Shown here in pieces: positions 14,468 to 45,292 of a DNA stretch of 64,000 nucleotides. The stretch is taken from the IMG/VR virus record IMGVR_UViG_3300042507_004023, one strand, 5' to 3'. The position numbers and the translations under genes were made by a program. The notes under the pieces were generated by a model. It did no database searches, was not told the origin of the DNA, and saw only the letters and a list, made by a program, of their open reading frames with translations. This stretch comes from a virus. Each line of letters begins with the position of its first letter. The first letter of the stretch is position 1.

Positions 14468-14482
14468 TCGGTAGGAGATAAA

Positions 14483-15178: not shown

Positions 15179-15181
15179 ACT

Positions 15182-15889: not shown

Positions 15890-15895
15890 TTCAAC

Positions 15896-16975: not shown

Positions 16976-17009
16976 TGTGCGACTCCTCCGCTTTTGGGGG
17001 AGTCGTGTC

Positions 17010-17016
17010 CTAAATA
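17010..17016 (+). promoter_or_regulatory. Late promoter variant CTAAATA upstream of nrdJ
   Basis: Between a 5' hairpin and the AGGAG RBS (17033-17037). Confidence 0.5.
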
Positions 17017-17044
17017 CAGGAACACTACAACTAGGAGAAATAAA

Positions 17045-22166: not shown

Positions 22167-22874
22167 TTATGAAGTTGGCACACGCATGATGTAGCAAAGT
22201 GCGTAGTATGGAGGAAGATTCTTTCCTGTTCCTGATTCGCCAGCAGAAGCAATAGTTACATTTGTTTTGTCTGTGTTACTAGTGCTGTAAAGCCATAGAT
22301 CTCCACCGCCTTGAGAACCACCGCCAGAAAGGCGAGATAGTCTACTCAATCCGGGTTTACCACCAATATTTGTTGGGGATAAACCACCTAAATTATCATC
22401 TGTAACAAAGAAGTGACCGTGACCTGGATCTGTAATTGTATGAGAGTGAGCACCAACAACAGCATCAGGTGAACCGCCGTTTTGATTTACGGTATAAGAA
22501 TCTCCTGCTCCAACTATAAACTTATTAAGCAAGTTTGGTGTGGTGTAACCAAAAACTACTCTTCCATCACACAAAGCCCATCCTGCGGGTATAGAACTTG
22601 CTAGTCCATACCACATAATAATACCACCGAATGGAAACCCTTCAGTCCACACAGGAGGAAGTCCTGAACCTTGAGAGGTGAGAACTTGCTGTGAAGTTCC
22701 AGGCGTGTTATTTACAATAGAACCAACACGAAGAGGGCCAAGAACTTTAATTTCACCAGAACTTGTCACTTCAAACTGTTCGGTTCCAACAGAGTCCTGA
22801 ACCACAACTCCAGGAGTTATTACAATCTTTGTGGCTAGTGCTGGACTAATTGTATCTACTTTTAATTCTGACAT
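22167..22874 (-). CDS. Tail-collar domain protein with MSELKV N-terminus (3 of 3)
   Basis: PFGGIIMWYG...IPAGWALCDG...TPNLLNKFIVGAG...HSHTITDPGHGH...NLPPYYALCYIMR. Confidence 0.85.
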   Translation of the reverse strand: MSELKVDTISPALATKIVITPGVVVQDSVGTEQFEVTSSGEIKVLGPLRVGSIVNNTPGTSQQVLTSQGSGLPPVWTEGFPFGGIIMWYGLASSIPAGWALCDGRVVFGYTTPNLLNKFIVGAGDSYTVNQNGGSPDAVVGAHSHTITDPGHGHFFVTDDNLGGLSPTNIGGKPGLSRLSRLSGGGSQGGGDLWLYSTSNTDKTNVTIASAGESGTGKNLPPYYALCYIMRVPTS

Positions 22875-28114: not shown

Positions 28115-28338
28115 TATTGGGTATTCCTGTCAATTAGGCGGGCTAGTAAATTTTTAATCTCGGAAATTTCAGTCTTCAGGTTATTTATCTCATTTTTTAC
28201 AGAGTCTTCTTTCGCCTTGCGATTTTCTCGTTTTCTGTGGTATTCTTCAATCTCTGAACGATTAGTGAACAACAAGGCTCCACTTTCGGTGTCACGAACT
28301 ATGGGTTCATTTTTAACTTTTAATCGGTCGGGTGTCAT
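28114..28338 (-). CDS. Small conserved T4-like hypothetical protein
   Basis: [23 protein letters not shown] motif then a coiled coil; translationally coupled to both neighbours. Confidence 0.7.
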
Positions 28339-31300
28339 GTGGCTATCACTCTCATGGATTGAACAACTGGAACCACATTACCTAGCGAAGAATACATCAC
28401 AAGTTTGACTGCAAAGGTTGAGAATTTATCTTTATCGGTCAACTCTAAGGTGTATCTGACTTCTTGGAATTCGCCTTCTGCCGTATTTGCATCGGTGGAA
28501 GCCGTCATCTTTTGATAACCACGAGTCTCAAAATAAGTGTTTGAATCCGACTCATCAGGCAGAGTTCTAGCAAACACTTCAATTGAAGATGGTGTAGGAT
28601 TGCTGATCGTTAAGAACACATCCAAACGAGTAGCCGGATAATCCAAGTTTACTTTCTTGCTAATATAGCGGGACTTCGATCTTACCGAAGAGTCAACGCT
28701 TCTATTATCCGAACTAATTTCGCCGTTATCGTTTTGAGAGCCAACCTTGTTGTTGTTTACCAAATTCTCAACAGAAACGATACAACCACGATCTATATCA
28801 ATCATCGGAGAAACATACTTGTTTTCTGTGCTCATGTAGCAGAACACAGAAGTAAATTTAGTGTTTGGATTCAAGTCGGTGGTATCTCTTCTATTGATAT
28901 TCTTGTTTAGAAGAACATCTGTAGCACCACTAGGCTTCATAATACCTTCTTCTTGCACAGTTACCGAAGTTCCTGGTGGAGTTACAGCAGGAATTTGGAA
29001 TCTTACAACCGCTGGATTTATGAGCGAAGACCCGTAATATGTGTTTGGAATGTTTGATAGTCGAAGAACCGAAGTTCCTGAAGTTTCAAATTCACAGATG
29101 TTTAGCGCAAACTTCAAATCTTCATTATCAATCTTGGTTAGTGTATTCTGACCTTGTGCAGAATACAGAGAACCAACACCAGGTTGATTGGTTGAAGAGT
29201 ATATCGGTGAACTTTCACTAGAGCGGTATAAAGTGTCTCCAATCTTGGCTGTATGCACCGAGAATTTATCGCTGCTTGTCTTCAGTGAGAAGCAGTATTC
29301 GTATCCTGGTGCGAGATACACAGGAGATGAGAATTTAAATTTGGTTCCCGAGTCTGTGGCATAATCGCTAACAGTTATTGAGTTTGAATAAACTGTTGAT
29401 GTTGCCAAAGGTAGAACTTTAGATGGGTGCGGATAGCCCCCGCTCATCGGTTTAATCGACATTGTAATTGGAACATTATAAGCCGAGTCAACCGTCTTAA
29501 ACCACAAAGAAACGCTGTTTGCAAACACCCCATAAGGATATAAAACAGGATCAATGTAGAAGGATTGTGATAGTGGATCAACCTTTCCAACACTTGATGC
29601 AGAATTTGAAGTGCTCTTCGTGAACACATTAGATTCTATGTTTGGTGAATTTACACTTACTCTGTAAGAAACTGGCTTACGAGTGCTAATTATACCTGCA
29701 TCAAAATCTTTGGATTCGTTACTGCCGTCAGCATTAAAGGTTTTATCTGCTGCGGTTGTGATTGCAGTTATATCGTTTGTGCTGCTATCGCACAAACGAA
29801 TTAGTTTAGCACCAGTCTTTACTTTACCAGTTTCGTTTAACAGTATTGCGTAATTGGTTGCGGTTGCCCCAACTCCAATTGAACCCGAAGGAGATGTGGT
29901 TATTGAAGCAGCCGTAGCACCTATATTGTAAACTCCTGCTGTAAATCCTGGAGTTACTTGGTAGATTGTTGATGGAGTTGTGCTGCCGTCAACAAACGCC
30001 CAAACTTTGGTTGAGGGTTTCAATTCTTCAGCAACAATAAGTGTGTAGATGTTTCTTGCGTAAAAATCTACATCCTTGTTTGCTTTACTTCCCAACTTCT
30101 TGTTAACAATTGATTCCGGTGTTATTGACTTTGGCGACAAGATGCCAGAGAATCTAGCAAAATTTGCATTTACCGACATTTCATCGTTTTGCTTGTTAGC
30201 CAAAGTTTGACTTGTTTCGTCTGTATATGCTTTACCGAACCAGTTTGTTTCCCAGTCATTCCATTGTGTTCCGAATCCTCCAATTTGACCGGGGCCTGTG
30301 CCTCCCTCAGCACCCAAACTTCCTCTTACAGAATACGACCAGTTATCATTTTCTCCCGAAACATTAACACGGACAGATGGAGACTGTGTATCTGCCATCC
30401 AGAAATCTGAATCAGGATAGGTTTTTAGTGAACCCATGAAATTAAAGATGCCGTATGGATTTACTTGACGAGAAGATGTTGCCAACGGTTGATTTACTCC
30501 AGCAACCTCATTCTTAATGCTGATAGTATAAATTCTATCAGCAGTAGGGCCCGGAAGTGCGGATGGCGAAATTAGAGAGGATGCTGGCAAACGAGTGTCG
30601 ATATCCACTCTATAAATTTTACTTCTAAATGCAGGACGAAGCACGGTAGTTTCAGGATCAATTGCCGCATTAAACATCTTACTTTTAACATCTGCAATAT
30701 TGTGACCACGGAAGGTGTCTACGAGAATTCCCTTCTTAGGAACAACATTACCGTCCACATCCTCTATAACAGTATTTTTTGCTTCTTGTTCTAGCAAATT
30801 CAAGGATGTGTAGTATTCTACCGCATCAATACGCTTCTCTAAAATGCCAATGTCTTCCATTGTGTAACGCTTGTTGTTTTGAATTCTTACCGAAACATCA
30901 TCCTTGGTGTTTGTGTAAGGAGAATAATTCAAAGTGTAAAGCGTCATTGCATTAGCATCATCTGGTGGTGTTGGAGCAGAAATATCAGCAATACCAGACA
31001 CCAACTTGAATTCTTTGTTTCTTGTTAGAACAATCTTATCTGTTCTAGGCAAGTATCTCTTAACATTCAAATAATTTACGCTGTTGTCTGACGGCAAAAT
31101 GTTTGGCATGAATGTGCCATCAGGCATTTTGTCTGGACGGAAATCTATCACATCAGAAAGTTTATAAGACTTTCCTGTATCTGGACTGCTGTATGATGGA
31201 ATTTGCTCTAGCGGCAAGTTGTAAGAATTTACAGTAAACGGAGCGGAGGTTGCTCCGGCTACAGGACGAGCAAAGTAAAGCATATTCACGGTTAGTCCTG

Positions 31301-33422
31301 AAGTTATTCCACCAGGAACTGAGCCTGCGGTGTAACCAGGTGCTAGCACCAACTTAGACCAATCGTAATAGTTGTCTCGCTGCCCCGTATCTAAAACAAA
31401 GTAATTACTTACATCTCCTGAAGCACTCGTAATACCAGACACACTTACAACATCAACATATTTGTTTAGGTAAACAAATTGTCTTCCATTAAATGTGGAG
31501 CCTGTTGGGCCAACTTCGTATTCAATTGGGCCTGTTACTGTTATTGCGGAAGAAGTTAAAGTTTTTGCTCGGTAAAGATAACTGCCACCTACTCCCTTTA
31601 GAGCAACTTCAAAGTTTACTGTTGCAGTTACCCCTGTTGGGCCGGCAGTTATGTAAAGAACTCCATATGTGCTGCTATCACCTTCAGCCAAAACATTGGA
31701 AACCGAATTGCCTGAAAGACTTATAACAGAGAGTGTGTTATCTGGCGAGTAAACTCCTGAAGCGTAATCAAAATACGCTTTTGCTGGATCCGCACCAAAA
31801 CCAATTGAACTTATAGAAATTTGAGCAGAACCTGTTGCACTAAATTCTACCTGTTTGCTCATTCTAACTTTATAGTCCACATCGCTTATATCATAGGTTC
31901 CAATTCCTGCGGTGTGTGGATACAGTAAAGTATTGGTAAAATCTTTTAGTTCTGATCCGCCTGTTGGAGAATAAGTTTCAAAGAGTTGTTCTCCTGTTCC
32001 AGTTTTACCAGGCACATAAATGCTCTTCGTGTCGGCAAACACGCTTGTTCCACTCATTGAAACATCAAACAAGTCTACACGCCAACGCTGACCTGTTGGG
32101 CCTCCCTTGAATTCAATACCTCTAACCTTCGCTGTTCCGATAGGAGCATATGCTCCTGTTGGTGATTTATTTGAACCGAGAATAACGGTTGGGATTCTGT
32201 TTAAGTTAAATCCTGTTAAGCCAAGGCTTGGGAAAGATGCGTTCGGATTTAGTTCTGCTAGAACATAAGGGCCAACAACGGAAGAGATGCGAGCATCTTC
32301 AAATTCTCGTGTGGCTCTAGCCTTAGGTAGATCAATTTTAGTTACGCCTTGTGTTTCAAATTCATAACCAAAAATATACGCTTTGCCTGCACCGATTTCG
32401 GCAACTAAGGTTGCTCCTGTTGCTCCATAAACTCCTTCGCTTATAGAGATTGAAAACGGATCAACAATATAGTTTCCAGATTCATCATAAGTTCTTCTCG
32501 CTAGTGTGTCTCCCAACACAGCATATGATGGATATTTTTCTTTCTTGATTGTTGTCCCATCAACAATTCTTATAAATTCAACGAAATCTCGTCTTGAAAA
32601 ATTATCTGTTGAAGAGGTGTTGGTTGGACTAAACTGATATTGCGTTATAGCCATTCCAATCTTATAACGATCTGCACCAGGAGCAGAATAGTTATAGAAT
32701 CCAAATGATGGATCCTTTAGAGTTTCATCTTCTTCACTAGTAATAAATTCACGACTTACATTAAATCCAACCCGTGATGTTGGATTATCGTAGAGACGAA
32801 CTTGAGATCCTGTAGATCCGGTTAGCGAATACGCACCAATTGTTTGCAAATCGTTTGCAACAAAGAATCCGTCAACATAACGAACTCCTGATCCGGCGTT
32901 GATAAGAATCGCATTACCTAAAGCGTAACCAGTCACTCCTCCTGAAGTTACTCCAGAGATAACCATAGAAACGCTGCTTCCGTTTGGAGCAGTTCCGCCT
33001 ACCGCTAATCCGTTTGAAAATGCTGTTCCGCCTGAGGTATACTCAAAGAATATGACAGGCATATTGTCTACCGTGCTTGACGACAGACCGCTTTCTGCGT
33101 GAACGATTTTAGCGTTTGCTCTGCCTGATACTGTTAAAACTGATCCGATAGTGTCGGTTATACTCAAAGTTCCCGTTAATCCGGTAACACGAGCATATTT
33201 TACACGGTTTTCAACAACCTCTCCACCTAAAACAATTGATCCTTCTTCAAAAATATTGTCTCCAAATTTCGAGATTTGATTCTGAAGAATGGATTGAAGT
33301 TGTGTGAGTTCACGAGCCTGAATTGCATATCCCGGTCTAAACAACATTCTAAGAAACTTTTTGTTCTGATCGTAATCATCGTAATAAGGATCAACATTAA
33401 AGATGGTTGGATCGTATGTCAT
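28335..33422 (-). CDS. Large virion structural protein (DUF4815-like)
   Basis: FNVDPYYDDYD...LFRPGYAIQARELTQLQSILQNQ, APGADRYKI, LARRTYDESGNY, GILVDTF, DPLSQSF motifs of this T4-like family. Confidence 0.85.
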   Translation of the reverse strand: MTYDPTIFNVDPYYDDYDQNKKFLRMLFRPGYAIQARELTQLQSILQNQISKFGDNIFEEGSIVLGGEVVENRVKYARVTGLTGTLSITDTIGSVLTVSGRANAKIVHAESGLSSSTVDNMPVIFFEYTSGGTAFSNGLAVGGTAPNGSSVSMVISGVTSGGVTGYALGNAILINAGSGVRYVDGFFVANDLQTIGAYSLTGSTGSQVRLYDNPTSRVGFNVSREFITSEEDETLKDPSFGFYNYSAPGADRYKIGMAITQYQFSPTNTSSTDNFSRRDFVEFIRIVDGTTIKKEKYPSYAVLGDTLARRTYDESGNYIVDPFSISISEGVYGATGATLVAEIGAGKAYIFGYEFETQGVTKIDLPKARATREFEDARISSVVGPYVLAELNPNASFPSLGLTGFNLNRIPTVILGSNKSPTGAYAPIGTAKVRGIEFKGGPTGQRWRVDLFDVSMSGTSVFADTKSIYVPGKTGTGEQLFETYSPTGGSELKDFTNTLLYPHTAGIGTYDISDVDYKVRMSKQVEFSATGSAQISISSIGFGADPAKAYFDYASGVYSPDNTLSVISLSGNSVSNVLAEGDSSTYGVLYITAGPTGVTATVNFEVALKGVGGSYLYRAKTLTSSAITVTGPIEYEVGPTGSTFNGRQFVYLNKYVDVVSVSGITSASGDVSNYFVLDTGQRDNYYDWSKLVLAPGYTAGSVPGGITSGLTVNMLYFARPVAGATSAPFTVNSYNLPLEQIPSYSSPDTGKSYKLSDVIDFRPDKMPDGTFMPNILPSDNSVNYLNVKRYLPRTDKIVLTRNKEFKLVSGIADISAPTPPDDANAMTLYTLNYSPYTNTKDDVSVRIQNNKRYTMEDIGILEKRIDAVEYYTSLNLLEQEAKNTVIEDVDGNVVPKKGILVDTFRGHNIADVKSKMFNAAIDPETTVLRPAFRSKIYRVDIDTRLPASSLISPSALPGPTADRIYTISIKNEVAGVNQPLATSSRQVNPYGIFNFMGSLKTYPDSDFWMADTQSPSVRVNVSGENDNWSYSVRGSLGAEGGTGPGQIGGFGTQWNDWETNWFGKAYTDETSQTLANKQNDEMSVNANFARFSGILSPKSITPESIVNKKLGSKANKDVDFYARNIYTLIVAEELKPSTKVWAFVDGSTTPSTIYQVTPGFTAGVYNIGATAASITTSPSGSIGVGATATNYAILLNETGKVKTGAKLIRLCDSSTNDITAITTAADKTFNADGSNESKDFDAGIISTRKPVSYRVSVNSPNIESNVFTKSTSNSASSVGKVDPLSQSFYIDPVLYPYGVFANSVSLWFKTVDSAYNVPITMSIKPMSGGYPHPSKVLPLATSTVYSNSITVSDYATDSGTKFKFSSPVYLAPGYEYCFSLKTSSDKFSVHTAKIGDTLYRSSESSPIYSSTNQPGVGSLYSAQGQNTLTKIDNEDLKFALNICEFETSGTSVLRLSNIPNTYYGSSLINPAVVRFQIPAVTPPGTSVTVQEEGIMKPSGATDVLLNKNINRRDTTDLNPNTKFTSVFCYMSTENKYVSPMIDIDRGCIVSVENLVNNNKVGSQNDNGEISSDNRSVDSSVRSKSRYISKKVNLDYPATRLDVFLTISNPTPSSIEVFARTLPDESDSNTYFETRGYQKMTASTDANTAEGEFQEVRYTLELTDKDKFSTFAVKLVMYSSLGNVVPVVQSMRVIAT

Positions 33423-33437
33423 ATGGTTTCCTTAGGC

Positions 33438-35912
33438 TCAGAACTGGAAGAGAACCTTGATTTCCTCTCTCTGTTCAATATTTCTCTTGATTGGTTGCGT
33501 ATTCTGTATGTAGATAAGTTCACCGGAGCGATACAGGAGTTCTTCTTCGTGAACCACCGAGTTTACGAGACAATTTGCGGAACTTGACGCAGAATCTTTA
33601 AATTCTATCTGTGTTCCTGTGAATGTTCCTTTGACACCTGAAAGTCTCAAGGTTCCTGTTGTTGCTCCCACAGGGGAGAAAGACCACTCAACAACAAGTC
33701 CAGTTCCTTGGGTGGTTGCTCCTGTTATTCCCCGAACAGCAAAATCACTCGGGAAAGAAATTGTGGAGAATGGTTTAGCCTCAGTTGTAACAACCGTTAA
33801 AGTTGTGGTTTGATCGTATACTGAAACAGATTCTCGTGTAATTTCTCCAATATCCACAACTTTCGCTGTGGCTGAAACTCCTGTCGGGCCACCCAAAGTT
33901 GGGCGCATGTAGTAATCAGATTCCACCAAGTATTCAAACCGAGTTGGATATTTTGTTGGATCTTCAACATATAGAGTTCCCAATGCATTATTGCCTGGAG
34001 CGGTTTCCCACTTATTGATTATTCCCGTGAAACGAGAATTTGAAATATTATTCTGTCTGTTACCGATAGAATTTACCCACAAGCCTGGACGGAAATCTGA
34101 GCCGTCCATTCGGAACTCTGCGCCCGAAGCACCTGAAGCAGGCGAAATCTTTAGACGAAGAATTTCGCGTCCTTCGGTTCCAGCAACTGTTCTGCGATTT
34201 ATATCCAAGATTGTAAAGTTTCCGCTACTTGCCGCTCCTGTTGAAGAAGAAACAATTCCTCCACAAACAAATGCTCCTGATGTTATCGACTCAACAACAA
34301 GTTCGGATGTTCCGTTGTAACCACTAACCCCATCATTCCAAGAAACTATTCTTGCCGTTGCTGCGCTTAACCCTGTAGCACCATCAGCACCAGTTTTACC
34401 TTGTATTAGTGTTGCTCCACCTATAAAAGATCCAGACAAGCCCCATTGCTCTAGTCTAAATCTGGTTTGAGGTTTCTTTAATAGTGGGTTTTTTATAATA
34501 CCAAATTGGCGGTAGTCATTATTAACAGATAGTTTTTTTCGTTCATCTTGACTAAAATCAATCACAACCATTAACGCGGCTGCGCCCAATTCTTTTATGG
34601 CATTACTTCCATGCCCGCCCGGAGGAGACAGAACAATATTTGCAACATCGTTAATGTTTCCTGTTCCTGTGAATCCTGCTGCAAAGGTTAATCCCTTTAC
34701 AGATATAAAATTTGCTCTACTATATCCAGCACCAGTGTCAACCATTTCGAACGAATCAATCAAGGTCTGATTGTAAATGTTCGTTAGATTGCAGTTATCT
34801 CTAGAAGAAGTTACACCAGGCCCAAATTTAACGGTAATATCTGCCTCTTTAAATTTGTTTAGGTATGTTTCTCGTGAATTGCCGTCGCCTTCTATTCTGA
34901 TGTTTGGAACAATCGAAAACTTGCTAGAGTTTGCAGACAAACCAACAGTTAGAGGCTCATCTAAAGTAATTGTTCCGTAGTTACCTATGGCGGTGTAATT
35001 GTAGGTTTTGATTACACGGCGTTGCCCTTCACCAGCACCAGAATCTACCGAGAAAACTAGATCGTTATAAAAGCCATTTAGACCAATCAGATAAGGACTG
35101 TAAATTCTTATTGATCCTGTATAACCATTTGAATAGTTTTGCGAAATTGAGTTAGCATTATTCGGAGTTACACAGTTTACGGCAGTTAGATACGGACGGT
35201 ATTCTGCTCGCAGTTCTGTGAAAGCAATTTCTCCATCAATTGCGCTTTGTTGAACATTCCATTGTAGTGATCGTTCTTCATCAACAAGACGAAGATAATC
35301 CACATATTCAACAGGAATATATCCCTGCACAACAACTCTTTGAAATGCTGCGGTTGAACTTGAAGTTTCATCATATACAGTCTTTGTGATAAACTTTCTT
35401 TTGCTCTCTGGAATCATATACATGAATTTCCAGCGATATCCATCAGAAAGTTTACGAATTTCGGGATCGGTGTGTGTTGGTGCAACCGTGGATACAGAGT
35501 TATAATAGTTGTCTATGCACTTATAGACTCGGGTTTCATCAACAACCACATAAAATCTAACCGGATTTATAGGATCAAATAGATCGGAGTCGTAACGATA
35601 CGGCTCGTAAACAGATCCCAATTTCCAATCAAATCTTGGTATCACTAAAGAGGCGTTATCTTGGGTTAGCCGCTTTACAGCAACAACATTTTCCCAAAAT
35701 TCAGTTTCTGTATCGTCCGTATCGTTTGACACCGGAACGGAACTAGCATATGAGCCTGATATTCCATCTGAAATTTCTTCAGTTTTCCAAGGGTTTACTC
35801 TACCTATACTCAAGAAATAATTGTTTTCCGATGAAATCGAAAGATCTGAAAGCACCTTTTCTGAAAGGTGTCTTCTAAAATTTTGGCGTATTGGGGAGCA
35901 GGATGATGACAT
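33438..35912 (-). CDS. gp8: Baseplate wedge subunit gp8 (extended)
   Basis: IPRFDWKLGSVYEPY, FYVVVDETRVYKCIDN, STVAPTH, DGYRWKFMY, SPPGGHGSNAIKELGA, SGELIYIQN..PIKR..EQREEIK. Confidence 0.88.
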   Translation of the reverse strand: MSSSCSPIRQNFRRHLSEKVLSDLSISSENNYFLSIGRVNPWKTEEISDGISGSYASSVPVSNDTDDTETEFWENVVAVKRLTQDNASLVIPRFDWKLGSVYEPYRYDSDLFDPINPVRFYVVVDETRVYKCIDNYYNSVSTVAPTHTDPEIRKLSDGYRWKFMYMIPESKRKFITKTVYDETSSSTAAFQRVVVQGYIPVEYVDYLRLVDEERSLQWNVQQSAIDGEIAFTELRAEYRPYLTAVNCVTPNNANSISQNYSNGYTGSIRIYSPYLIGLNGFYNDLVFSVDSGAGEGQRRVIKTYNYTAIGNYGTITLDEPLTVGLSANSSKFSIVPNIRIEGDGNSRETYLNKFKEADITVKFGPGVTSSRDNCNLTNIYNQTLIDSFEMVDTGAGYSRANFISVKGLTFAAGFTGTGNINDVANIVLSPPGGHGSNAIKELGAAALMVVIDFSQDERKKLSVNNDYRQFGIIKNPLLKKPQTRFRLEQWGLSGSFIGGATLIQGKTGADGATGLSAATARIVSWNDGVSGYNGTSELVVESITSGAFVCGGIVSSSTGAASSGNFTILDINRRTVAGTEGREILRLKISPASGASGAEFRMDGSDFRPGLWVNSIGNRQNNISNSRFTGIINKWETAPGNNALGTLYVEDPTKYPTRFEYLVESDYYMRPTLGGPTGVSATAKVVDIGEITRESVSVYDQTTTLTVVTTEAKPFSTISFPSDFAVRGITGATTQGTGLVVEWSFSPVGATTGTLRLSGVKGTFTGTQIEFKDSASSSANCLVNSVVHEEELLYRSGELIYIQNTQPIKRNIEQREEIKVLFQF

Positions 35913-35929: not shown

Positions 35930-38900
35930 TTAAGTTAATTGATAGTTGAATTCCTTGACAGTTTCGCTGCCTGTAATAATGGCATTTGAAACATTTCGGA
36001 AGTATAGTTTGAGTCGATATACGCAATTTGTATTCGGATACTGATTTCCTCTCCAACTAAATGGACTTCCTACAGTTCCTCTACCCAAAGTTATTGCACC
36101 AGGCTCGCTGTTCGGATTGTCGGGATTTACGAACGGATATAGGATGTTTATGCTGTTGGCAGAGGTTGGGAAAGGCCCCACCGAAGCCATCTGATATTCC
36201 TTGCCTGTTTCATCCACCACAGACAAATCTGCCCAAAGACTTATTGCCGAGTAATACGAGAGGTATAGCAAGGTGGAAAGTCCTGCCAACTCGCCCGAAG
36301 AAATCAGAACCCCATCAAGTTGAATGTTCATGGATCGGCTACCAGGTTCACTATCAACCACATATTGAGTATCTGTGCTCCATTCCGGAATGTCTACCGA
36401 CTTTCCGTTTACAGTAACTACCTTGACTTGCGGGACAGGAGGAGTCAAAACTTCCTGATCTTTACAATTAAATTCGGGACCAACTGGCATTTCTAGGAAT
36501 GAACGAAGCGTTATCTTTCTGAATTCCGAATAGTCCACTCTAGAACCTAAAGTTGTAAGTGCAAGTATTGGGCCGTTATCTCCCGTTTCTCCCGAGGTTG
36601 ATCCGGTTTGACCTAATTCACAATTACAAGTTTCAACACAATATGTGTGATTTACTCGATACTCGGCATAACAATCTATGGGTAGACATTGACCGCAATT
36701 ATCGTATTCTTGTTGTGTTGGGCAATCGGCACACACATCGCACCCCTCAGAAACACATCCATTAGCAACACAATCCGAGCAACTTATAGATGGAGTGCAA
36801 CCGCAATCTCTACAGAAACTGTTGTTTATGCTGTATTGGTTGTCGCAATCTGATGGAGTGCATTGACTACACAGCGTGTAACTCTGTTCACAACCACAAG
36901 ACACACAGAACTCGTAATTAATTGAGGATGGATAATCGCAATCACCTTGCAAGCATTGGTTGCAGTTTGTGTATTTGCCAGGGCCATCGTAAATACACTC
37001 GTCACATTCCGTTCGGCAACGAATGCCATTACAATCATTTTTTACACACTCATCGCATAGAACTGTTGTTGGCACACAGCCACAGGTGTTTCTACAGAAT
37101 TTAGTATTAACTGTTATGCTATCACAGTCCAATTGAGTGCATTCTTCACAACTTGTGTAAATGGTTCCACAACCACAATCAACACAGAAATCATAATTTA
37201 AAGTTCCTACTGTGCAATCTGCTACTGTGCATTGTGAACACTTGGTATACTTTGTCTTGCAGCCCTCGCAGTTATAACAGCCCGAACAACCTGCACAATC
37301 GTAACTTCCTGTGATGCTGAAACAATCAAAAATTGGTGAGCAACAAGAGCAACCTGTGCAACCAGGATCTACTACCACAGCAGAACAACCCGTGCAACTG
37401 TGACAGCCTGAGCAGCCTGCACAATCATACATTCCGCTCACAATGTTGTAGCAGGGCAATCCTTCCCAAGTCGAGCAAGCCGCACATCCTGTTGGACCAG
37501 CAGATGCTCCTGTTATGGCACATCCTGTGCAACCACCAAATCCTGAACAACCCAAGCAGTCGTAAACACCCAAGAAAGTGTTCCAACATGCAAATCCATT
37601 AGCAGTAGTTCCGCAGCATAGAGCACCAGAACAAGTTGGGCCAGTTACAGGACATCCTGTGCATTGCCAGCAGCCAGAACAACCTTCACAATCATATCCT
37701 GTCGGAATATCCATTGTAAAACACGGATTAACTTGAGAACAACGATCACATCCTGTGGCTGGTGCTGTTACACCACAGCCTGTAAAGCCATAGCATCCTG
37801 AGCATCCTTCGCAATCTAGCAAACCTGTGATACGGTTATATCCTCCCGTCAAACAACATTCGCAGCCTGTGCATCCGCCTGTTACAGGACATCCTGTGCA
37901 CGAGAAGCACCCCGAGCATCCTTCGCAGTCATATAGACCTGTTACAATGTTGTAGCAACCGCCCGTCACGCTTGTTGAGCAGCAACCACAACCTGTGCAA
38001 CTAGTTGCTCCTGTGATAGAGCATCCTAGACAGCCCCAACAACCCGAGCAGCCTTGGCAATCGTAGAATCCATCAATTGTGAAGCATGGGTTTTCTTGAC
38101 TGCATAGAGCGCATCCTGTTAGACTTCCTGTTATACCGCAGCCCGTGCAACCGTTGAAGCCCGAGCATCCCACACAATCGTATATGCCTGTTACAATGTT
38201 GTAGCACAGAGTTCCACTGCCTGTGGTTCCGCAGCATGCCGTGCCACCTGAACCCGTGCAACTAGTTGCTCCTGCGGATACACCAGTGATACCACACCCT
38301 GTGCATCCAAAGCAACCCGAGCAGCCTTCACAATCGTAAAGATTTGTAGCCTTATTGAAGCAGCCACCCGTGCAGCACTCACAACCAATACAAGGAGTTG
38401 TTGTTGTGCAGCCCAAGCATCCAAAGCAGCCTGAGCAGCCTTCACAATCGTAAATTCCACTTAGAGTCCAGCAAGGAGCGTCCGAACGGCAAAGATTGCA
38501 TCCTGTTGCTCCTGTTGGGCCTTGAGGACATCCTGTGCATCCGTGGCAACCAGAACATCCTGCACAATCGTAAATACCGTCAACAGTATGGCAAAGGTTT
38601 ACAGAACTGCACAGAGCACATCCTGTTGCAGGAGCAGTTATACCGCATCCTGTGCATCCGAAGCATCCAGAGCATCCTTCGCAATCAAGCAGTCCTGTCA
38701 TTATGTTTAGACACGGGATACCAGGATGGCATGAATCGCAAGGATCTTGTGGAATAGATGGACATCCTGTGCAACCGCCAAGTCCTGAACATCCTTCACA
38801 ATCATAAACTCCCAAGAAAGTATTCCAACATGCGTTTCCGTTTGCTGTCGTTCCGCAACAACTTGGACCCGAGCAAGTTGGGCCTGTTGCAGGACATCCT

Positions 38901-41900
38901 GTGCAGCCTGGACAACCTGAACAGCCCAAACAGTCGTATAGTCCACCTAGTGTGAAGCAACCAAACTGACAACAATCGCATCCAGTGCAAGCCGTTGGGC
39001 CAGGATCTCCACCAAAAATATAAGCCCTGTCGATTTCATCGAATACAACAGGAACATAACCCATGTCTATTAGTTCTTTAATTACTGTTCCGCGAGCAAC
39101 ATCTCTGTCATTTGCTCGTGTTGGATCTCCTCCAAATCCTCGTAGAGCAGGATCGTTTGAGGAATACCAGTTGCAACCAACCCAAGTTTCGTGATCTGGT
39201 GTTAGATAGTTTGCCAAGCCAAATGACTTAGTTACATTTCGATTACCATTTGAGGCGTTAAACAAATCAAGATATGTTGCATCTTTTCTGTGCATGTAAT
39301 CAGAATTTCTACTCTCTGTAACATACTTTATTTGTCCCTCATATAGCGACAAATAAGAATTTCTAATTGACTCTGCACCTATGTAAGAAACCTCATTTGG
39401 GGCATTCGATGGATGCCAAGCATCCAATCCTATCATACCCTTTGAAACGCCTCTAGAATTTATAGTGATATTTGCGACTCTATCTAACTGATCGAGTATT
39501 AGTTGGTCATCGTATCCAGTCGATCCAAACGGATAAAGAGTTCCACCAAATTCGGTTTGATATTTCAATGAATTGCCAAACCAAAACCCGACTTGTTTAT
39601 CATCATCCAACGCATCTATCATAGATTTGAACAAAGAAACTCCATCATCCATATTATTTGTAATGGAGAATGTTGCACCTAATGGAGTAGTCCAAATTCT
39701 ATCAGGTTCGTCCCAATGCGAAACTGCTCTAACTGGATAATTTCCACTTGCTGCTGCTCCACTTGGAGTCCAAATCATAACACGATCCCAACCCTTTTTC
39801 TCTATCTGATCCTTAACATAATTTACAGGGCCAGACATACCAACCACATTTGGGTATCCTCCAGCCTGAGCAGATTTGGTTTGAATTGTATCCCAACCGT
39901 AAGGATTGTAATTAGAAGCGGTGGGACTAGAAAGGTTTACTAGGTGTTCATATCCAAAATGAACTCCTTTAACTGGTCTATAATCTGGAATATACGAATG
40001 CGGATACTTGGAGTCCAAGAAATCTTTATACACCGATAAAGTTTCAAACGCGGCAGCATCTTGTAAATTCACATCTTGTTCTATTAACGATTTTCCGCCA
40101 ATTAGATTCTGAGAAATCGGAATAGTGTTGAATTTAACAACCACTTTATAGGTTCTAGTTTCGCCTGCCGGTATTTTTGCAGAATCATACAATTGAGATT
40201 CGTTTTGTGTTGCAAATTGGAAACTATATCTATCAACATATGCCTTATAATTTTGATTTGCAGCAACACTCATCGCAACAGCCGGATTGTCTTGTGGCGG
40301 GAAAACTACAAGACTTATATCGTGACCGTAAACTTCTGGTTGATATCCAACAACAGACATACTTACAGCAAAATTGTTTTGCTCGCAACAAGCACCTTCA
40401 AACTTAGTTTTTGCGAGATGAATAGGAGAATACAAAATATCAGGATATCTTGCACTTTGAACAGAACCATTTCTGGTTATAGTTCTATAGGTTCCTATTG
40501 GGGATCCTGTTGCTCCATACAGTTTTGTATCGTAATATTCAATAGAATCACCCAAATTCAATGAAGGAGTGTCCAACCAATCTATGATTTTTTCTTCGCT
40601 GCAAGTGTTGGTATATGTGTAATTTACTTCCATTGTTCCGTCATTATCGTTTGTAATAACGGATATGTTTGGTTTGATTACCGAATTTGAACAATTTGAT
40701 GTTCCTGGTTTTGGTGGAGTCCACCCGTTGATAATGATTCTGTCACCAGGCCCATATGCATACCAAGAATCACCTATCACATCGTATTCAAAAGCAAAAT
40801 CTGTAGTTTTAGGATTGTTATACTTTTGATTCCAATAGTTTAGTGCGGCTTCGATTTGTGTATAATTTATTTTATCGGTAAGGGCGAAAACATTATCAAC
40901 TTCTGATTTACTGATTCTTGGGAAATCACCACTAACGCTAACATTACTTACAAGTTCGAATGTTGCACCTATAGCACCAAAACTAATAATATCTCCAGGG
41001 AATCCCAGGTTCACCCATCTTGGTCTTTGATTTGCGTAACTAGGATCTTTTTGTAGATCTAAAGCCTTTAGTTGTGCATCACCTGTAACTGGATTTGATG
41101 CTCCTAGACAGGTCGAATAAGGCGCATTTCCACTAGTAAATCCGTGAGTTGCACCATCAACTCCCCAATATCCCGTATCAGTTCTTGAGCCGAATGGGAC
41201 AGCGGGAGTCCAAAGGGCTACATCGTTACCAGCCTCTTGGGTAAATTGTGGTTGCCCTACAAAGAAGAAAGGCTCAACACCAATTTCAACAGTGTTTGCA
41301 TCAATCGCTTGAACTCGCTTAACATATCCTATACGATCCGCAGTGTTCCAACCTTTGTCTTGATATGATCGACCGTCAGGGTAAGAAAATACGGTGGCGG
41401 ATCCTGTTAACGAATTAAATAACGGATTTGAAATAATGTCTCCGGTTACTCCCACACCGTCACGAGATCTTATTGGAGTAGACGATAACGGATTTACTGT
41501 TCTGTAATTAAACGCAAAAGTTGTGCCTGGAGCCATGCTTAAATTTACAGAGTTTGCTCCGTTAGCAGAGAATTTCTTTATTCTGAATGTGTATTCTTTT
41601 ATACTGCCCCATTCAGGCAAATCTCTAGTTTTCTCAAAGAAAGATGGATATTTGGTTTTTAGATAAGCATACTTTTCTGGTTTGTCAAACACAAATTGAG
41701 CACCAGTTTGTCCTGTCATGCCATCAAGGAAGGCTTCATACGATAGTAAATTCATACGAGCCTGAGTTTTGGGAGTTTTGCCAGTCAATCTTGCAGGAGC
41801 GGATGCTGTTGGCCAAACCGGAGCCAAAGATCCTCCCCACCAAGGATTTCCTCCCTGTTTTCCACTTGTAATCAACCATGATACACGCGGTTTACCATTA

Positions 41901-44900
41901 AGCCCAATAGGAACTCCTGGTCCTGTTGGTGCTCCTGGTCTTAACGCTTCTCCACCAGCAAAATCCCAATATGGCTCAAATCCATAAGAAACGGTTAATG
42001 GATTTAGTTTCCAATCAATAACTGATCCATCGGCTCCAGTAATTTCAATGGTTCTTGGATTTGGAGAACTAATGGCGCATCCCCACTTTTTGGTGTAGGT
42101 ATCGTCTCCAGACCACAGATAGAACCCGTGAACTGAGCCTTTTGGATTACCCGACAAAGAACCTTCAATATACAGATTAACAAATTCTGATGGACTAAAG
42201 AAAGATCCGTCTTGTATTGATGGGGCTACTGCTCCGTATCCGCCACTTCCAGTTCCAACAGTATACGCTTTATTTGAAATGAACGGGATAATTAGCACAT
42301 TATCGTATCCCTTTTCTGCTGCAATTTCTTGCCGCCATTTAACCATTTCGGTTATGGTCAAATTTTGCAGGGCTTTTTCTGCTGCTATATTTTCTGTGGC
42401 AACATAAAAACTAGGCATCCACACATTAACATTTCTTGCATAATTCGTCCATTGTTCTTTCCACAGTTTTAAAGCGTGGTCACGATACTTGGTTCCGAAT
42501 CTAACATCCAAAATACCTAATCCGCTTGCTTTTGATGATTGGGGATCGTTAGTATCCAAAGTATCTCTGCCGTCCCAACGGCAATCGGGGCATGTTGGTG
42601 AAGGCACATAACTCTTATAATCAACGGACTTGCCATCAATTATTCTTGTTAAGGTTTCAAACTTTGAACTTCTAGCGTCTCCACTAAATCCTGGATAATC
42701 GTGATATTTCAAAATGTTTCTTGGAACTGCGTATGGCTGCCCGTAGTTTGCAAACAGGGCGTTTGGAAATTTTTGTTGCAATCCGTCAAAAGTTAGTCCA
42801 TCCGCACCAGTTCCACCAACAAATATCGGAATCATATACTTGTTCATTATAAAATTGCCGACCGAATTTGGATCATCTGGATTTGCTCGTCCTACACTGC
42901 TAGAAAAAATTGGATCCCAGGTTTCATTATTCATTGCGATCAGATTGTCATACTCGAAAGTGTAACGATTATCCCCTAAACGCAAAGTTCCTGCGCCAGA
43001 AATTCCATTCCAGTCTGGCTTAATATCTCCAAGCAAAGACGAGACAAATTTATCCATTGCTGCTTTAGAGGTATTTGTAAGCCCGTGTGTTCCTGCAACT
43101 ATACCTTTAAAAGCACCAACTTTAGGATAATGGCTGCTTGCTTCTGAATCCCAATTTGTGAATCGGTTGTATTGTAGTGTGATGTTATCCGCGTAAGATG
43201 TTTTATCTTCAGAAGTGTCTGAATTATTCAAGTTCTTTGCCAATGGGCTTAAAGAACCAATTGCCTTTACGGTTTGTGTTTCATCAATTCCAATCACTTC
43301 TCCGTTTTCATTTCTCAAGTAATAATCCAAAGTAATATCTGTTCCTGTAGACAGATTTTTTTGAGGGGTTAGATTTGAAACACTCTTGCTATTATCAGTC
43401 TTTAGTTTTTCTAGATCCTTATATCCTTGAAGAGTGAAAACATTATCATAATAAATTTTTGGCAAAAATGCGGATTGTCCTACAAGTTTATTTTGAGGAG
43501 TCAAAAACTCTTGAACAGATTGTGGTTCATAGTAGGTTTGAGTATACGGTTTAACTGGATTGTAATTCAGGGTTACATATCGTTCTCCTGAAGTGAATCC
43601 TGTCGCCCAATCTGTTCGATTTGCGGTGCTACCTTCTGTCCACTCTGCCCAATAGCCAGTATAACCGCTATTATTAGAAGAAATTCCAAAAGGAAACTCT
43701 CTGCCTGCTCCCAAATCATTCAAGAATTCGTTCTTTAGATCGTAAGGAATTCTAGCCGTAACTGAACCACGAATCTTGCGATTCGGGTGCTGATATACGA
43801 TCCAGAAAGGATCTGCGTTTTGAAAGTTTGCTGTTCTCAGAGGAACTAGAGGATTTTGGAATGCTCGGTTAAATGTTACGGGATTTCCTATAGACTTTAA
43901 ATATTCCTTTGAGGAAATTCCATCAAGCCCCGCAAGAGCAACATCACCGAAATCTATTATCCCGTTTTCATCAAGATCATTTCTTATAATCTGATTGTGA
44001 ACTGTTGGATCGTAGCCAGCCAAAAGTCCTGTGTTTGGATCCGTAAACCAGTTTGAAAGATCGTCGTAAGTTTTGAATGTATACGGTGCGTAGTGACCAA
44101 TAATCGGCACTTCGTATTCCACAAGAGATGTGCTGTTCTGCAAATCTGCAACAGCGCAACGCTTAATTTGAACTTTACCAAAGAACGCAAGACCTGCTGG
44201 ATTTAAAAGTCTCTTTAAAACATCACGATAACGATCAACAGTAACTTCACTTAAAATAACATATGAAAAGTTTTGATAGTAATGATTGTCTTGAATAACT
44301 TTATTGGTGCTTAATCTGCCGTCGTTGTTGGCGTAATAACCTTGGTATTCCGCCATTCCATTAACAGTAACAGAACCAACAAATCCGGTTCCTGCTTCAG
44401 ATTCAATTGTTATTGCGGGAGCAACCTTGTAATTAACACCATAATTATCAATCAAAATTTTTCTGATTTTACCCAAAGCGTCAACTTCAGCAACACGAGC
44501 AGAGGCTTTAACACCAGTATCTCCTTCAGCAGAGGCAAAAATAACACGATCTCCTGCTTTATACCCGCTTCCGCCGTTTGTTATTGTGATTTTTCCAATA
44601 ACAGAGAAAACTCGGTTTTCTTTACGCAAAATACCAGTTTTGTCTGTAAATTCTATGCCATCATAGCCTGCCGCAAATTGACCATTTACTCCACCCAAGA
44701 AAAGTTCAGCAATATCATTAGTTCCAACTCGATATGTGCTAACTTCAATGACTCGTCCACTTGCAGCAATATCTCCGTTCGCATCTCGTTGAACTACTGT
44801 TGCGCCAATAGAATCAAAAATAGCATTTCCTATATTGTTACTCGTCTTTATAGAACGACGGACAACCCACTTTCCGTCTGAAAGTTTCATAATATCATTC

Positions 44901-45292
44901 TTGGGATAATAGAATTCTACGGAAGTATCAAACAGAATTCTAAACAAGAAATCGTAGGTTTTTTCGGTTCCTTTTGCTCGGTAAAATCCCTTGATGTTTT
45001 TCATCAATTTTACAGGATCTACAGGCTTTTTGGTTGTCTCGGATACCGCTAGTTTTTCTGGAAACCCAAGAAGATATTCATTCTTAAAATATGAAATGAA
45101 TTCTTCTAGTGTAGAGTCAACATCAATAACGCTAGCAAGTTTCTTTGGAGATCGTAGGAAGGTGTTATCCGAATCTAACCACTCATAGTAAGCCGTAAGA
45201 AAAGCAACCAGAGTTGGATGGTCAACCCTTACAAATTCTGGTAATTGTCCTGCTATGAATGGTGATGTAGGATTAAAGTTTTTGTCTGTCAT
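35930..45292 (-). CDS. gp7: Baseplate wedge initiator gp7-like protein, 3120 aa, with large accessory region and Cys-rich repeats
   Basis: N-terminal GQLPEFV..FLTAYYEWL, NIKGFYRAKGTEKTYDFLFRILF, LSTNKVIQDNHYYQNFSYVI, LLNPAGL; located between gp6 and gp8. Confidence 0.85.
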   Translation of the reverse strand: MTDKNFNPTSPFIAGQLPEFVRVDHPTLVAFLTAYYEWLDSDNTFLRSPKKLASVIDVDSTLEEFISYFKNEYLLGFPEKLAVSETTKKPVDPVKLMKNIKGFYRAKGTEKTYDFLFRILFDTSVEFYYPKNDIMKLSDGKWVVRRSIKTSNNIGNAIFDSIGATVVQRDANGDIAASGRVIEVSTYRVGTNDIAELFLGGVNGQFAAGYDGIEFTDKTGILRKENRVFSVIGKITITNGGSGYKAGDRVIFASAEGDTGVKASARVAEVDALGKIRKILIDNYGVNYKVAPAITIESEAGTGFVGSVTVNGMAEYQGYYANNDGRLSTNKVIQDNHYYQNFSYVILSEVTVDRYRDVLKRLLNPAGLAFFGKVQIKRCAVADLQNSTSLVEYEVPIIGHYAPYTFKTYDDLSNWFTDPNTGLLAGYDPTVHNQIIRNDLDENGIIDFGDVALAGLDGISSKEYLKSIGNPVTFNRAFQNPLVPLRTANFQNADPFWIVYQHPNRKIRGSVTARIPYDLKNEFLNDLGAGREFPFGISSNNSGYTGYWAEWTEGSTANRTDWATGFTSGERYVTLNYNPVKPYTQTYYEPQSVQEFLTPQNKLVGQSAFLPKIYYDNVFTLQGYKDLEKLKTDNSKSVSNLTPQKNLSTGTDITLDYYLRNENGEVIGIDETQTVKAIGSLSPLAKNLNNSDTSEDKTSYADNITLQYNRFTNWDSEASSHYPKVGAFKGIVAGTHGLTNTSKAAMDKFVSSLLGDIKPDWNGISGAGTLRLGDNRYTFEYDNLIAMNNETWDPIFSSSVGRANPDDPNSVGNFIMNKYMIPIFVGGTGADGLTFDGLQQKFPNALFANYGQPYAVPRNILKYHDYPGFSGDARSSKFETLTRIIDGKSVDYKSYVPSPTCPDCRWDGRDTLDTNDPQSSKASGLGILDVRFGTKYRDHALKLWKEQWTNYARNVNVWMPSFYVATENIAAEKALQNLTITEMVKWRQEIAAEKGYDNVLIIPFISNKAYTVGTGSGGYGAVAPSIQDGSFFSPSEFVNLYIEGSLSGNPKGSVHGFYLWSGDDTYTKKWGCAISSPNPRTIEITGADGSVIDWKLNPLTVSYGFEPYWDFAGGEALRPGAPTGPGVPIGLNGKPRVSWLITSGKQGGNPWWGGSLAPVWPTASAPARLTGKTPKTQARMNLLSYEAFLDGMTGQTGAQFVFDKPEKYAYLKTKYPSFFEKTRDLPEWGSIKEYTFRIKKFSANGANSVNLSMAPGTTFAFNYRTVNPLSSTPIRSRDGVGVTGDIISNPLFNSLTGSATVFSYPDGRSYQDKGWNTADRIGYVKRVQAIDANTVEIGVEPFFFVGQPQFTQEAGNDVALWTPAVPFGSRTDTGYWGVDGATHGFTSGNAPYSTCLGASNPVTGDAQLKALDLQKDPSYANQRPRWVNLGFPGDIISFGAIGATFELVSNVSVSGDFPRISKSEVDNVFALTDKINYTQIEAALNYWNQKYNNPKTTDFAFEYDVIGDSWYAYGPGDRIIINGWTPPKPGTSNCSNSVIKPNISVITNDNDGTMEVNYTYTNTCSEEKIIDWLDTPSLNLGDSIEYYDTKLYGATGSPIGTYRTITRNGSVQSARYPDILYSPIHLAKTKFEGACCEQNNFAVSMSVVGYQPEVYGHDISLVVFPPQDNPAVAMSVAANQNYKAYVDRYSFQFATQNESQLYDSAKIPAGETRTYKVVVKFNTIPISQNLIGGKSLIEQDVNLQDAAAFETLSVYKDFLDSKYPHSYIPDYRPVKGVHFGYEHLVNLSSPTASNYNPYGWDTIQTKSAQAGGYPNVVGMSGPVNYVKDQIEKKGWDRVMIWTPSGAAASGNYPVRAVSHWDEPDRIWTTPLGATFSITNNMDDGVSLFKSMIDALDDDKQVGFWFGNSLKYQTEFGGTLYPFGSTGYDDQLILDQLDRVANITINSRGVSKGMIGLDAWHPSNAPNEVSYIGAESIRNSYLSLYEGQIKYVTESRNSDYMHRKDATYLDLFNASNGNRNVTKSFGLANYLTPDHETWVGCNWYSSNDPALRGFGGDPTRANDRDVARGTVIKELIDMGYVPVVFDEIDRAYIFGGDPGPTACTGCDCCQFGCFTLGGLYDCLGCSGCPGCTGCPATGPTCSGPSCCGTTANGNACWNTFLGVYDCEGCSGLGGCTGCPSIPQDPCDSCHPGIPCLNIMTGLLDCEGCSGCFGCTGCGITAPATGCALCSSVNLCHTVDGIYDCAGCSGCHGCTGCPQGPTGATGCNLCRSDAPCWTLSGIYDCEGCSGCFGCLGCTTTTPCIGCECCTGGCFNKATNLYDCEGCSGCFGCTGCGITGVSAGATSCTGSGGTACCGTTGSGTLCYNIVTGIYDCVGCSGFNGCTGCGITGSLTGCALCSQENPCFTIDGFYDCQGCSGCWGCLGCSITGATSCTGCGCCSTSVTGGCYNIVTGLYDCEGCSGCFSCTGCPVTGGCTGCECCLTGGYNRITGLLDCEGCSGCYGFTGCGVTAPATGCDRCSQVNPCFTMDIPTGYDCEGCSGCWQCTGCPVTGPTCSGALCCGTTANGFACWNTFLGVYDCLGCSGFGGCTGCAITGASAGPTGCAACSTWEGLPCYNIVSGMYDCAGCSGCHSCTGCSAVVVDPGCTGCSCCSPIFDCFSITGSYDCAGCSGCYNCEGCKTKYTKCSQCTVADCTVGTLNYDFCVDCGCGTIYTSCEECTQLDCDSITVNTKFCRNTCGCVPTTVLCDECVKNDCNGIRCRTECDECIYDGPGKYTNCNQCLQGDCDYPSSINYEFCVSCGCEQSYTLCSQCTPSDCDNQYSINNSFCRDCGCTPSISCSDCVANGCVSEGCDVCADCPTQQEYDNCGQCLPIDCYAEYRVNHTYCVETCNCELGQTGSTSGETGDNGPILALTTLGSRVDYSEFRKITLRSFLEMPVGPEFNCKDQEVLTPPVPQVKVVTVNGKSVDIPEWSTDTQYVVDSEPGSRSMNIQLDGVLISSGELAGLSTLLYLSYYSAISLWADLSVVDETGKEYQMASVGPFPTSANSINILYPFVNPDNPNSEPGAITLGRGTVGSPFSWRGNQYPNTNCVYRLKLYFRNVSNAIITGSETVKEFNYQLT
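36620..37250 (-). repeat. Cys-rich repeat type B within gp7
   Basis: About five copies of Y-(T/D)-x-C-x2-C-x3-DC-x(5-8)-N-x2-(F/Y)-C-x(2-3)-C-x-C, with two shorter CxxC-x3-xC units between them. Confidence 0.8.
37259..38989 (-). repeat. Cys/Gly repeat type A within gp7 (14 copies, about 40 aa)
   Basis: 14 copies of (Y/L)DCxGCSG(C/L/F)xx(C/F)xGC counted in the translation, each preceded by a CxxC(C)...C(F/W/Y/L/H) segment. Confidence 0.95.

What the first reader, a model, noticed from the sequence alone, without database searches (positions are those of the whole stretch)
37259..38989. Fourteen-copy Gly/Cys repeat in baseplate gp7: candidate metal or Fe-S binding fibre
Seen: about 575 aa of ~40-aa units, CxxC(C)-x(3-10)-C-aromatic-x(5-7)-(Y/L)DCxGCSGCxxCxGC, mostly 7-9 Cys per unit. 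The core has Cys every third residue in (G-C-x)n register. Synonymous divergence between copies with invariant DC/GCSG suggests selection on the protein. Established: CxxCxxC spacing ligates 4Fe-4S clusters; Gly/Cys-rich GciS proteins of giant viruses bind Fe-S; lambda gpL carries an Fe-S cluster; T4 gp7 (about 1030 aa) has nothing like this. Inference: with six copies per baseplate, hundreds of thiols form a metal-loaded or disulfide-locked appendage, for redox or metal sensing, iron-uptake mimicry or adhesion. I know of no described phage family with this repeat.
Basis: partly seen in the sequence, partly recalled or inferred. Interest (0 to 1): 0.88.

Follow-up and report, generated by a model that had tools for sequence, protein, structure and literature searches.

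The report
Cysteine-bead arm on phage baseplate
A small group of uncultured lake phages has spliced about 20 tiny cysteine-rich beads into a tail-base protein; the cysteines are gained and lost in fixed pairs, so the beads are probably disulfide-stapled spacers that hold a sugar-cutting-type domain away from the virion, not an iron-sulfur or metal-collecting fibre.

Summary
Observation confirmed: 14 units (38-52 aa, 120 Cys) in a 3120-aa gp7 of a freshwater T4-like phage, under purifying selection (dN/dS 0.07-0.14). Units hold 8 or 10 Cys, not 7-9. Across 113 distinct units from related phages, four Cys are invariant; six others come and go in strict pairs (C1-C3, C2-C8, C5-C9), on about five separate branches, never replaced by His/Asp/Glu. 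No CxxCxxC triad is invariant. This favours intra-unit disulfides over Fe-S; a Zn site on the four invariant Cys is not excluded. The array, plus a second 7-unit Cys repeat, ends a ~2300-aa insert absent from an ~800-aa gp7 in a related lineage, and follows a TIM-barrel, glycosidase-like domain; relatives swap RCC1 or heparinase-like modules nearby. One 10-Cys copy sits in the tail-fibre collar loop. Best reading: a disulfide-stapled spacer arm for host-glycan modules (0.55). No Pfam, PHROG, PDB, BFVD, cultured-phage or GTDB match. Another reader of this scan noted the paired loss on this same DNA; different Cys-bead stalks were noted in other phages.

The parts
35930..45292 (-). gp7-like baseplate wedge protein, 3120 aa, carrying a ~2300-aa insert
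   Evidence: PF23786, E 2e-11; PHROG 17744; gene order gp25-gp6-gp7-gp8
43532..45292 (-). N-terminal gp7 scaffold (aa 1-587), shared with the ~800-aa 'empty' gp7 of relatives
   Evidence: 71-72% identity to L077 and L079 gp7
40013..43531 (-). variable passenger region (aa 588-1760), no family match; insertion and gene-split hot spot near aa 1680-1704
39011..40012 (-). TIM-barrel domain (aa 1761-2094), most like clan GH-A glycoside hydrolases; invariant Asp197, Glu233, Glu275 (domain numbering); activity not shown
   Evidence: pLDDT 51; Z 10.4, rmsd 4.4 over 242-252 residues to GH5 enzymes; lead only
37259..39010 (-). type-A array, the finding: 14 units, 120 Cys, ten Cys slots, Thr/Gly/Pro-rich linkers with G-x-T-G motifs
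36608..37258 (-). type-B array: 7 six-Cys units (five of one kind with invariant Tyr, Asn and six Cys; two shorter ones), unrelated to type A
35930..36604 (-). C-terminal gp7 scaffold (aa 2897-3120), the likely anchor of the arm
   Evidence: 57% identity to the C-terminus of the empty gp7
23828..23947 (-). single self-contained 10-Cys type-A unit, at the end of a 28-Cys insert (24517..23786) between the collar motifs of the collagen-like tail fibre
   Evidence: kept in fibres of L013, L081, P0006, P0007, P0008
27977..28114 (-). Cys-rich N-terminal cap of the same tail fibre; present in six array-bearing phages, not seen in the empty-gp7 lineage

Best explanation
The array is a chain of 14 small beads, each stapled by 4-5 internal disulfides (C1-C3, C2-C8, C5-C9 from covariation; the invariant C4, C6, C7, C10 inferred to form two more, most simply C4-C7 and C6-C10), joined by short Thr/Gly/Pro linkers that may be glycosylated. 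With the seven type-B beads it forms an accessory arm, anchored in the wedge by the C-terminal part of gp7, that holds a glycosidase-like TIM barrel and other swappable modules some tens of nanometres from the baseplate (rough estimate 40-70 nm if extended), six per virion, to bind or cut host surface polysaccharide. The disulfides would form in oxic lake water after lysis, or with help not found here, and make the arm protease- and wear-resistant. Shown: repeat anatomy, selection, paired gain and loss, dispensability, module swapping, barrel fold class. Inferred: that pairs are disulfides, the last two pairings, the spacer role, enzyme activity, glycosylation, origin from the fibre copy.
For: Strict pairs in 113 distinct units: C1/C3 57-0-2-54 (the two exceptions are C1 shifted by an insertion), C2/C8 89-0-0-24, C5/C9 101-1-0-11 (the exception is in contig L073, which also has an in-frame stop). 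The unit tree puts C5/C9 loss on two separate branches, C1/C3 on at least two, C2/C8 on one. About 190 vacated slots hold A, L, F, G, S, P, T, R, Y, Q, V and never H, D, E or M; C8 and C9 go to Phe/Tyr while the partner goes to Gly/Ala/Thr, the usual filling of a lost buried disulfide (own knowledge). dN/dS 0.07-0.14, near the scaffold's 0.06-0.08. An ~800-aa gp7 without the insert exists. Copy number is 14 in seven orthologues and 18 in L072, as a spacer allows. The neighbour domain is a TIM barrel closest to GH5; relatives carry RCC1 repeats or a separate heparinase II/III-like gene at the same place. In L072 and L076 gp7 is split, leaving barrel + arrays + C-terminal anchor as one linear protein. 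Precedent: the freshwater myophage Pam3 has intra- and inter-subunit disulfides in its wedge (PMC9942802).
Against: No measurement exists. Virions assemble in a reducing cytoplasm, and 80 correct disulfides per chain is a folding problem; no thiol oxidase was found, but only 64 kb of a 183-kb genome and three fragments could be searched. Paired loss could also come from edge-sharing metal-thiolate clusters. Units are related, so the counts overstate independence (about five events). The AlphaFold unit model is middling (pLDDT 72, pTM 0.45) and gave no coordinates to check S-S distances. The barrel model is weak (pLDDT 51; Z ~10 with non-glycosidase barrels at 9.6). Position-specific conservation of the 14 units is tighter than a pure spacer needs.
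Confidence: 0.55

Rival explanations
1. Zinc (or copper) thiolate beads: each unit binds one Zn through the invariant C4, C6, C7, C10, with optional pairs adding further metal ions or disulfides; same spacer role. Includes a hybrid in which Zn holds the fold in the cytoplasm and is lost on oxidation after lysis.
For: Exactly four invariant Cys including a C-x2-C; made in a reducing cytoplasm; weak, non-significant profile likeness to nuclear-receptor treble-clef fingers (E 0.07); model has a short helix and a hairpin.
Against: The treble-clef alignment needs C2, which is lost together with C8 in 24 units; no Cys-to-His/Asp/Glu exchange in any slot; three independent optional pairs around one four-Cys site need unusual bridging; no zinc-finger match in Pfam, PDB or BFVD.
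Confidence: 0.22
2. The beads are themselves the adhesin: each exposes aromatic residues that bind a repeated host-surface ligand, giving avidity; stabilised by disulfides.
For: The single fibre copy sits in the collar loop, where the neighbouring short fibre gene (22874..22167) has HxH needle motifs; hairpin and x positions are rich in Tyr/Phe/Trp; each of the 14 positions keeps its own sequence across phages.
Against: Units are nearly uncharged and under uniform purifying selection, with none of the hypervariability typical of receptor-binding tips; the variable modules are upstream.
Confidence: 0.12
3. Pam3-like docking platform: array cysteines form inter-chain disulfides with the Cys-rich N-terminal cap of the tail fibre.
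For: Six array-bearing phages have the cap and the empty-gp7 lineage lacks it; Pam3 wedge Cys bridge its fibres (PMC9942802).
Against: The co-occurrence is one evolutionary event; every unit has an even, internally paired Cys set, leaving no free Cys; the cap's own Cys number is even in the window phage.
Confidence: 0.06
4. One reading: an Fe-S or iron-loaded fibre for redox or metal sensing or iron-uptake mimicry.
For: C-x2-C-x2-C runs in 89 of 113 units; Fe-S clusters exist in virions: lambda gpL, four Cys, surface-exposed (PMC10721106) and GciS (cited in PMC12499515).
Against: No triad invariant; no ferredoxin or radical-SAM motif; no HxH iron site; no Fe-S family match for type A; about 84 oxygen-sensitive clusters per virion in lake water is unlikely (inference).
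Confidence: 0.05

Closest known systems
T4-like gp7 baseplate wedge proteins (PF23786; PHROG 17744), e.g. Synechococcus phage BUCT-ZZ01, Caulobacter phage Cr30
   Same: N-terminal scaffold (about 30% identity), position between gp6 and gp8, tolerance of large inserts
   Different: No cultured phage among 50,697 records has either Cys array; here 162 Cys lie in 790 residues
Cyanophage Pam3 wedge gp22/gp23 (PMC9942802)
   Same: Freshwater myophage; Cys-rich wedge regions; intra- and inter-subunit disulfides shown by cryo-EM, MS and DTT
   Different: A few scattered Cys in a minimal wedge, linking fibres; no tandem module. Here 21 self-contained modules with internally paired Cys
Lambda gpL / RcGTA gp13 4Fe-4S tail-tip proteins (PMC10721106) and Megavirinae GciS (Villalta 2023, cited in PMC12499515)
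   Same: Virion proteins with conserved Cys; GciS is Gly/Cys-rich
   Different: gpL has one four-Cys site in a hub protein; GciS is a small free protein. No sequence link found; paired loss is not expected of cluster ligands
Eukaryotic disulfide-rich tandem spacers (EGF, LDL-A, laminin, TNFR-type repeats; own knowledge)
   Same: Works like them: 30-50-aa beads, even Cys numbers, optional pairs, Thr-rich linkers, spacing a functional domain from an anchor
   Different: No homology; no signal peptide or secretory folding route; Gly-Cys-x core is peculiar to this clade
(C-S-x)n tripeptide-array proteins of small phages (PHROG 15341 / 31265)
   Same: Cys every third residue; they match the loose core motif
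   Different: Uninterrupted tripeptide runs in 200-300-aa stand-alone proteins, no hairpin half, no baseplate context

Membership tests
T4-like gp7 wedge protein | Baseplate_wedge profile match above cut-off | tested here: met
   PF23786 44.3 bits vs cut-off 27
T4-like gp7 wedge protein | gene between gp6 and gp8 | tested here: met
T4-like gp7 wedge protein | six copies in the virion wedge, insert retained | not testable with these tools
   needs virion proteomics or cryo-EM
4Fe-4S ferredoxin-type / radical SAM domain | conserved C-x2-C-x2-C-x3-C-P or C-x3-C-x2-C motif | tested here: not met
   0 of 113 units for both; no invariant triad
GciS Fe-S proteins | sequence homology to the Megavirinae family | tested here: inconclusive
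   no hit among 1.84 billion representatives or BFVD, but GciS was not compared directly
GciS / gpL Fe-S proteins | bound Fe-S cluster by spectroscopy | not testable with these tools
   needs UV-vis, EPR, Mossbauer
Treble-clef zinc finger (nuclear receptor type) | two invariant C-x2-C pairs flanking a hairpin | tested here: not met
   first pair's C2 absent in 24 of 113 units; best E 0.065
Disulfide-rich small-domain repeat (works like) | Cys gained and lost in fixed pairs, replaced by non-ligand residues | tested here: met
Disulfide-rich small-domain repeat (works like) | disulfides shown chemically or structurally | not testable with these tools
   no coordinates returned; needs MS mapping
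ShKT / CRISP domain (for type-B units) | profile match to ShKT or CRISP families | tested here: not met
   no Pfam or PDB match for 38 units
Clan GH-A glycoside hydrolase (adjacent domain) | (beta/alpha)8 barrel | tested here: met
Clan GH-A glycoside hydrolase (adjacent domain) | two catalytic Glu after strands 4 and 7; family profile match | tested here: inconclusive
   invariant Asp/Glu at strand ends but no profile match; model pLDDT 51

The most novel reading that the evidence does not exclude
This phage clade builds virion parts from secreted-protein-style disulfide beads inside the cytoplasm by a two-state route: units fold on Zn (or as reduced, glycan-shielded chains) during assembly and are oxidised to 4-5 disulfides each on lysis, so oxygen exposure matures or stiffens the host-searching arms; or it carries its own cytoplasmic oxidative-folding system.
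Probability: 0.2. Interest if true: 0.8.

Novelty: new variant of a known kind. Interest (0 to 1): 0.55.

Why it matters
Structural disulfides in phage virions are documented in few cases (Pam3) and as single bonds. Here one chain would carry about 80, nearly 500 per baseplate, in two undescribed micro-domains, which raises a testable question: how does a protein made in a reducing cytoplasm pair them correctly? The 40-residue unit is cheap to make, comes with a natural series of 6-, 8- and 10-Cys variants and a predicted connectivity, so disulfide versus Zn versus Fe-S can be settled in one experiment. It also shows gp7 acting as a mount for swappable glycan-active modules in lake phages. It is a clade-limited accessory, not a core mechanism, which caps the score.

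Tried and rejected
Family and structure searches for the repeat: Pfam, NCBIfam, PHROGs (97; only low-complexity Gly-x-Thr hits), PDB sequences, Foldseek PDB and BFVD, VIA wide (49, 50, 124; a 44-residue model is a weak query), ESM Atlas, cultured phages: nothing significant. GTDB motif scans: none, and one chance intergenic match with stops. A loose motif scan pulled in an unrelated (C-S-x)n family. ShKT likeness of type B, recalled from memory: no support. Type A vs type B homology: none. Passenger aa 700-1250 as a copy of the barrel: none. Complex of arrays with the fibre cap: no answer, score 0.00, no evidence either way. Thiol oxidase search: Erv1 not in two fragments with a silent control, thioredoxin only in a distant phage, no DsbB/Trx-like ORF seen in the window; the whole genome is not held, so this is open. 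A paper on cytoplasm-facing myovirus DsbB that I recall was not found. The three-unit alignment A2 was out of register and not folded. RNA-library contigs cover short pieces of the gene (59) but do not prove transcription. Host not determined.
Full report
Observation. The stretch is the minus strand of a 3120-aa ORF (45292..35930) between gp6- and gp8-like genes of a T4-like phage; its N-terminus matches PF23786 and PHROG baseplate wedge families. Units have 8 or 10 Cys. A second, unrelated repeat of seven 6-Cys units follows at once (37258..36608), and a fifteenth type-A unit lies in the tail fibre at 23947..23828. The DNA is real: an identical protein is on another assembly; 14 lake or freshwater runs hold half or more of it, eight studies if possible sources are left out; laid contigs show no joints or indels.

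Range. Only 4 near-length proteins among 5.8 billion and 2 cluster representatives among 1.84 billion carry the array. Motif scans found 4 IMG/VR contigs and 3 JGI contigs, partly the same phages, no cultured phage and no cellular gene. It is a trait of one small clade. No Pfam, NCBIfam, PHROG, PDB, BFVD or Atlas family explains it.

Selection. Against five orthologues dN/dS is 0.07-0.14, close to the gp7 scaffold (0.06-0.08); all 114-120 aligned Cys are kept while 30-45% of their codons differ. Seven orthologues have 14 units in the same order, one has 18.

Cysteine chemistry. The unit has ten Cys slots. In 113 distinct units C4, C6, C7 and C10 never vary. The other six vary in three strict pairs: C1 with C3, C2 with C8, C5 with C9. 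The only true single loss is in a contig that also has an in-frame stop. Units are kin, so I counted events on a tree: C5/C9 on two branches, C1/C3 on at least two, C2/C8 on one (42 columns, many forks open). About 190 vacated slots never hold His, Asp, Glu or Met; C8 and C9 become Phe or Tyr while the partner becomes Gly, Ala or Thr. From established knowledge this is how disulfides are lost; metal sites tend to keep four ligands or swap Cys for His. The Fe-S argument rests on CxxCxxC spacing, but no such triad is invariant and no unit has a ferredoxin, radical-SAM or HxH motif. The four invariant Cys could be two more disulfides or one Zn site; the data cannot decide. A weak likeness to nuclear-receptor zinc fingers (E 0.07) needs C2, which is dispensable. 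AlphaFold gives a compact unit with a short helix at C2-C4 and a hairpin between C5 and C6 (pLDDT 72); from this I guess C4-C7 and C6-C10, unverified. The lone fibre copy has all ten slots in order, which fixes the module boundary and shows it is self-contained.

Context. Two close relatives (L077, L079; one lineage) have an ~800-aa gp7 that aligns to aa 75-587 and then directly to about aa 2897-3119. So both arrays end a ~2300-aa dispensable insert, next to the C-terminal scaffold. Immediately upstream lies a 334-aa domain predicted as a TIM barrel whose best matches are GH5 glycosidases (Z 10.4, rmsd 4.4; model pLDDT 51), with invariant acidic residues at strand ends. Near aa 1680-1704 relatives insert about 550 aa, carry RCC1 repeats further up, or split gp7 around a separate ~890-aa gene, heparinase II/III-like in L076. 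In the split forms the array-bearing half is a linear barrel-arrays-anchor protein. The empty-gp7 lineage keeps the single unit in its fibre's collar loop, so the unit is more widespread in the fibre than in gp7; fibre copies form their own clade, loosely near the terminal units 1 and 14. Copying from fibre to gp7 and expansion is likely but not rooted. That lineage also has other proteins with 51-72 Cys, so Cys-rich modules are a clade habit.

Mechanism. Best reading (0.55): disulfide-stapled beads on short linkers form six accessory arms that space a glycan-active barrel and swappable modules from the wedge. Precedent for oxidised wedge cysteines is the freshwater myophage Pam3 (PMC9942802). 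Rivals: Zn-thiolate or Zn-then-disulfide beads (0.22); beads as avid adhesins (0.12); Pam3-like fibre docking, suggested by a Cys-rich fibre cap found only in array-bearing phages (0.06); Fe-S fibre (0.05), with gpL and GciS as precedent (PMC10721106, PMC12499515). The open weakness is folding in a reducing cytoplasm; no oxidase was found, but most of the genome could not be searched.

Verdict. Real, selected, undescribed micro-domain array; a bona fide gp7 with a new kind of insert; works like eukaryotic disulfide-rich spacers without being homologous. New variant of a known kind; interest 0.55. My paired-loss reading was noted before I saw that another reader had the same idea on this DNA; that is not independent support.

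Noticed in passing
L072:6087-8756 and L076:313-2991, matching window about 40190 (gp7 aa 1702-1704): gp7 is split into two genes at the same point, inside what looks like one beta domain, with an ~890-aa gene between (heparinase II/III-like in L076); other relatives have in-frame inserts at this spot.
   Followed up: partly
window 24517..23786: 28-Cys insert between the collar motifs of the 1743-aa collagen-like fibre, where the neighbouring 235-aa collar gene (22874..22167) has HxH motifs.
   Followed up: partly
window 28114..27977: Cys-rich N-terminal cap on the fibre in six array-bearing phages, not seen in L077 and L079.
   Followed up: partly
L007-L070 (e.g. L015:5422-6252, L040:11925-12638): A widespread family of small-phage proteins with long uninterrupted (C-S-x)n arrays and a conserved C-terminal domain with a His-Cys motif; PHROG 15341/31265, no Pfam, function unknown.
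   Followed up: partly
L079:17857-24530 and L077:17423-20905: Large proteins with 51-72 Cys plus P-domain, TIG and RCC1 repeats in the empty-gp7 lineage; the Cys motifs remind me of secreted Phycisphaerae proteins (memory, untested).
   Followed up: no
window 94..3084: 996-aa fusion of a nucleotidyltransferase-like N-terminus (by eye), RimK-type ATP-grasp ligase and retropepsin-like protease, followed by a C-terminal region of unknown kind.
   Followed up: no
window 10631..16606, 22883..35912: G-x-T-G motifs are concentrated in virion structural proteins and nearly absent from enzymes.
   Followed up: no
window 16994..18982 and 8231..8941: B12-dependent ribonucleotide reductase-like gene and ThyX.
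   Followed up: no
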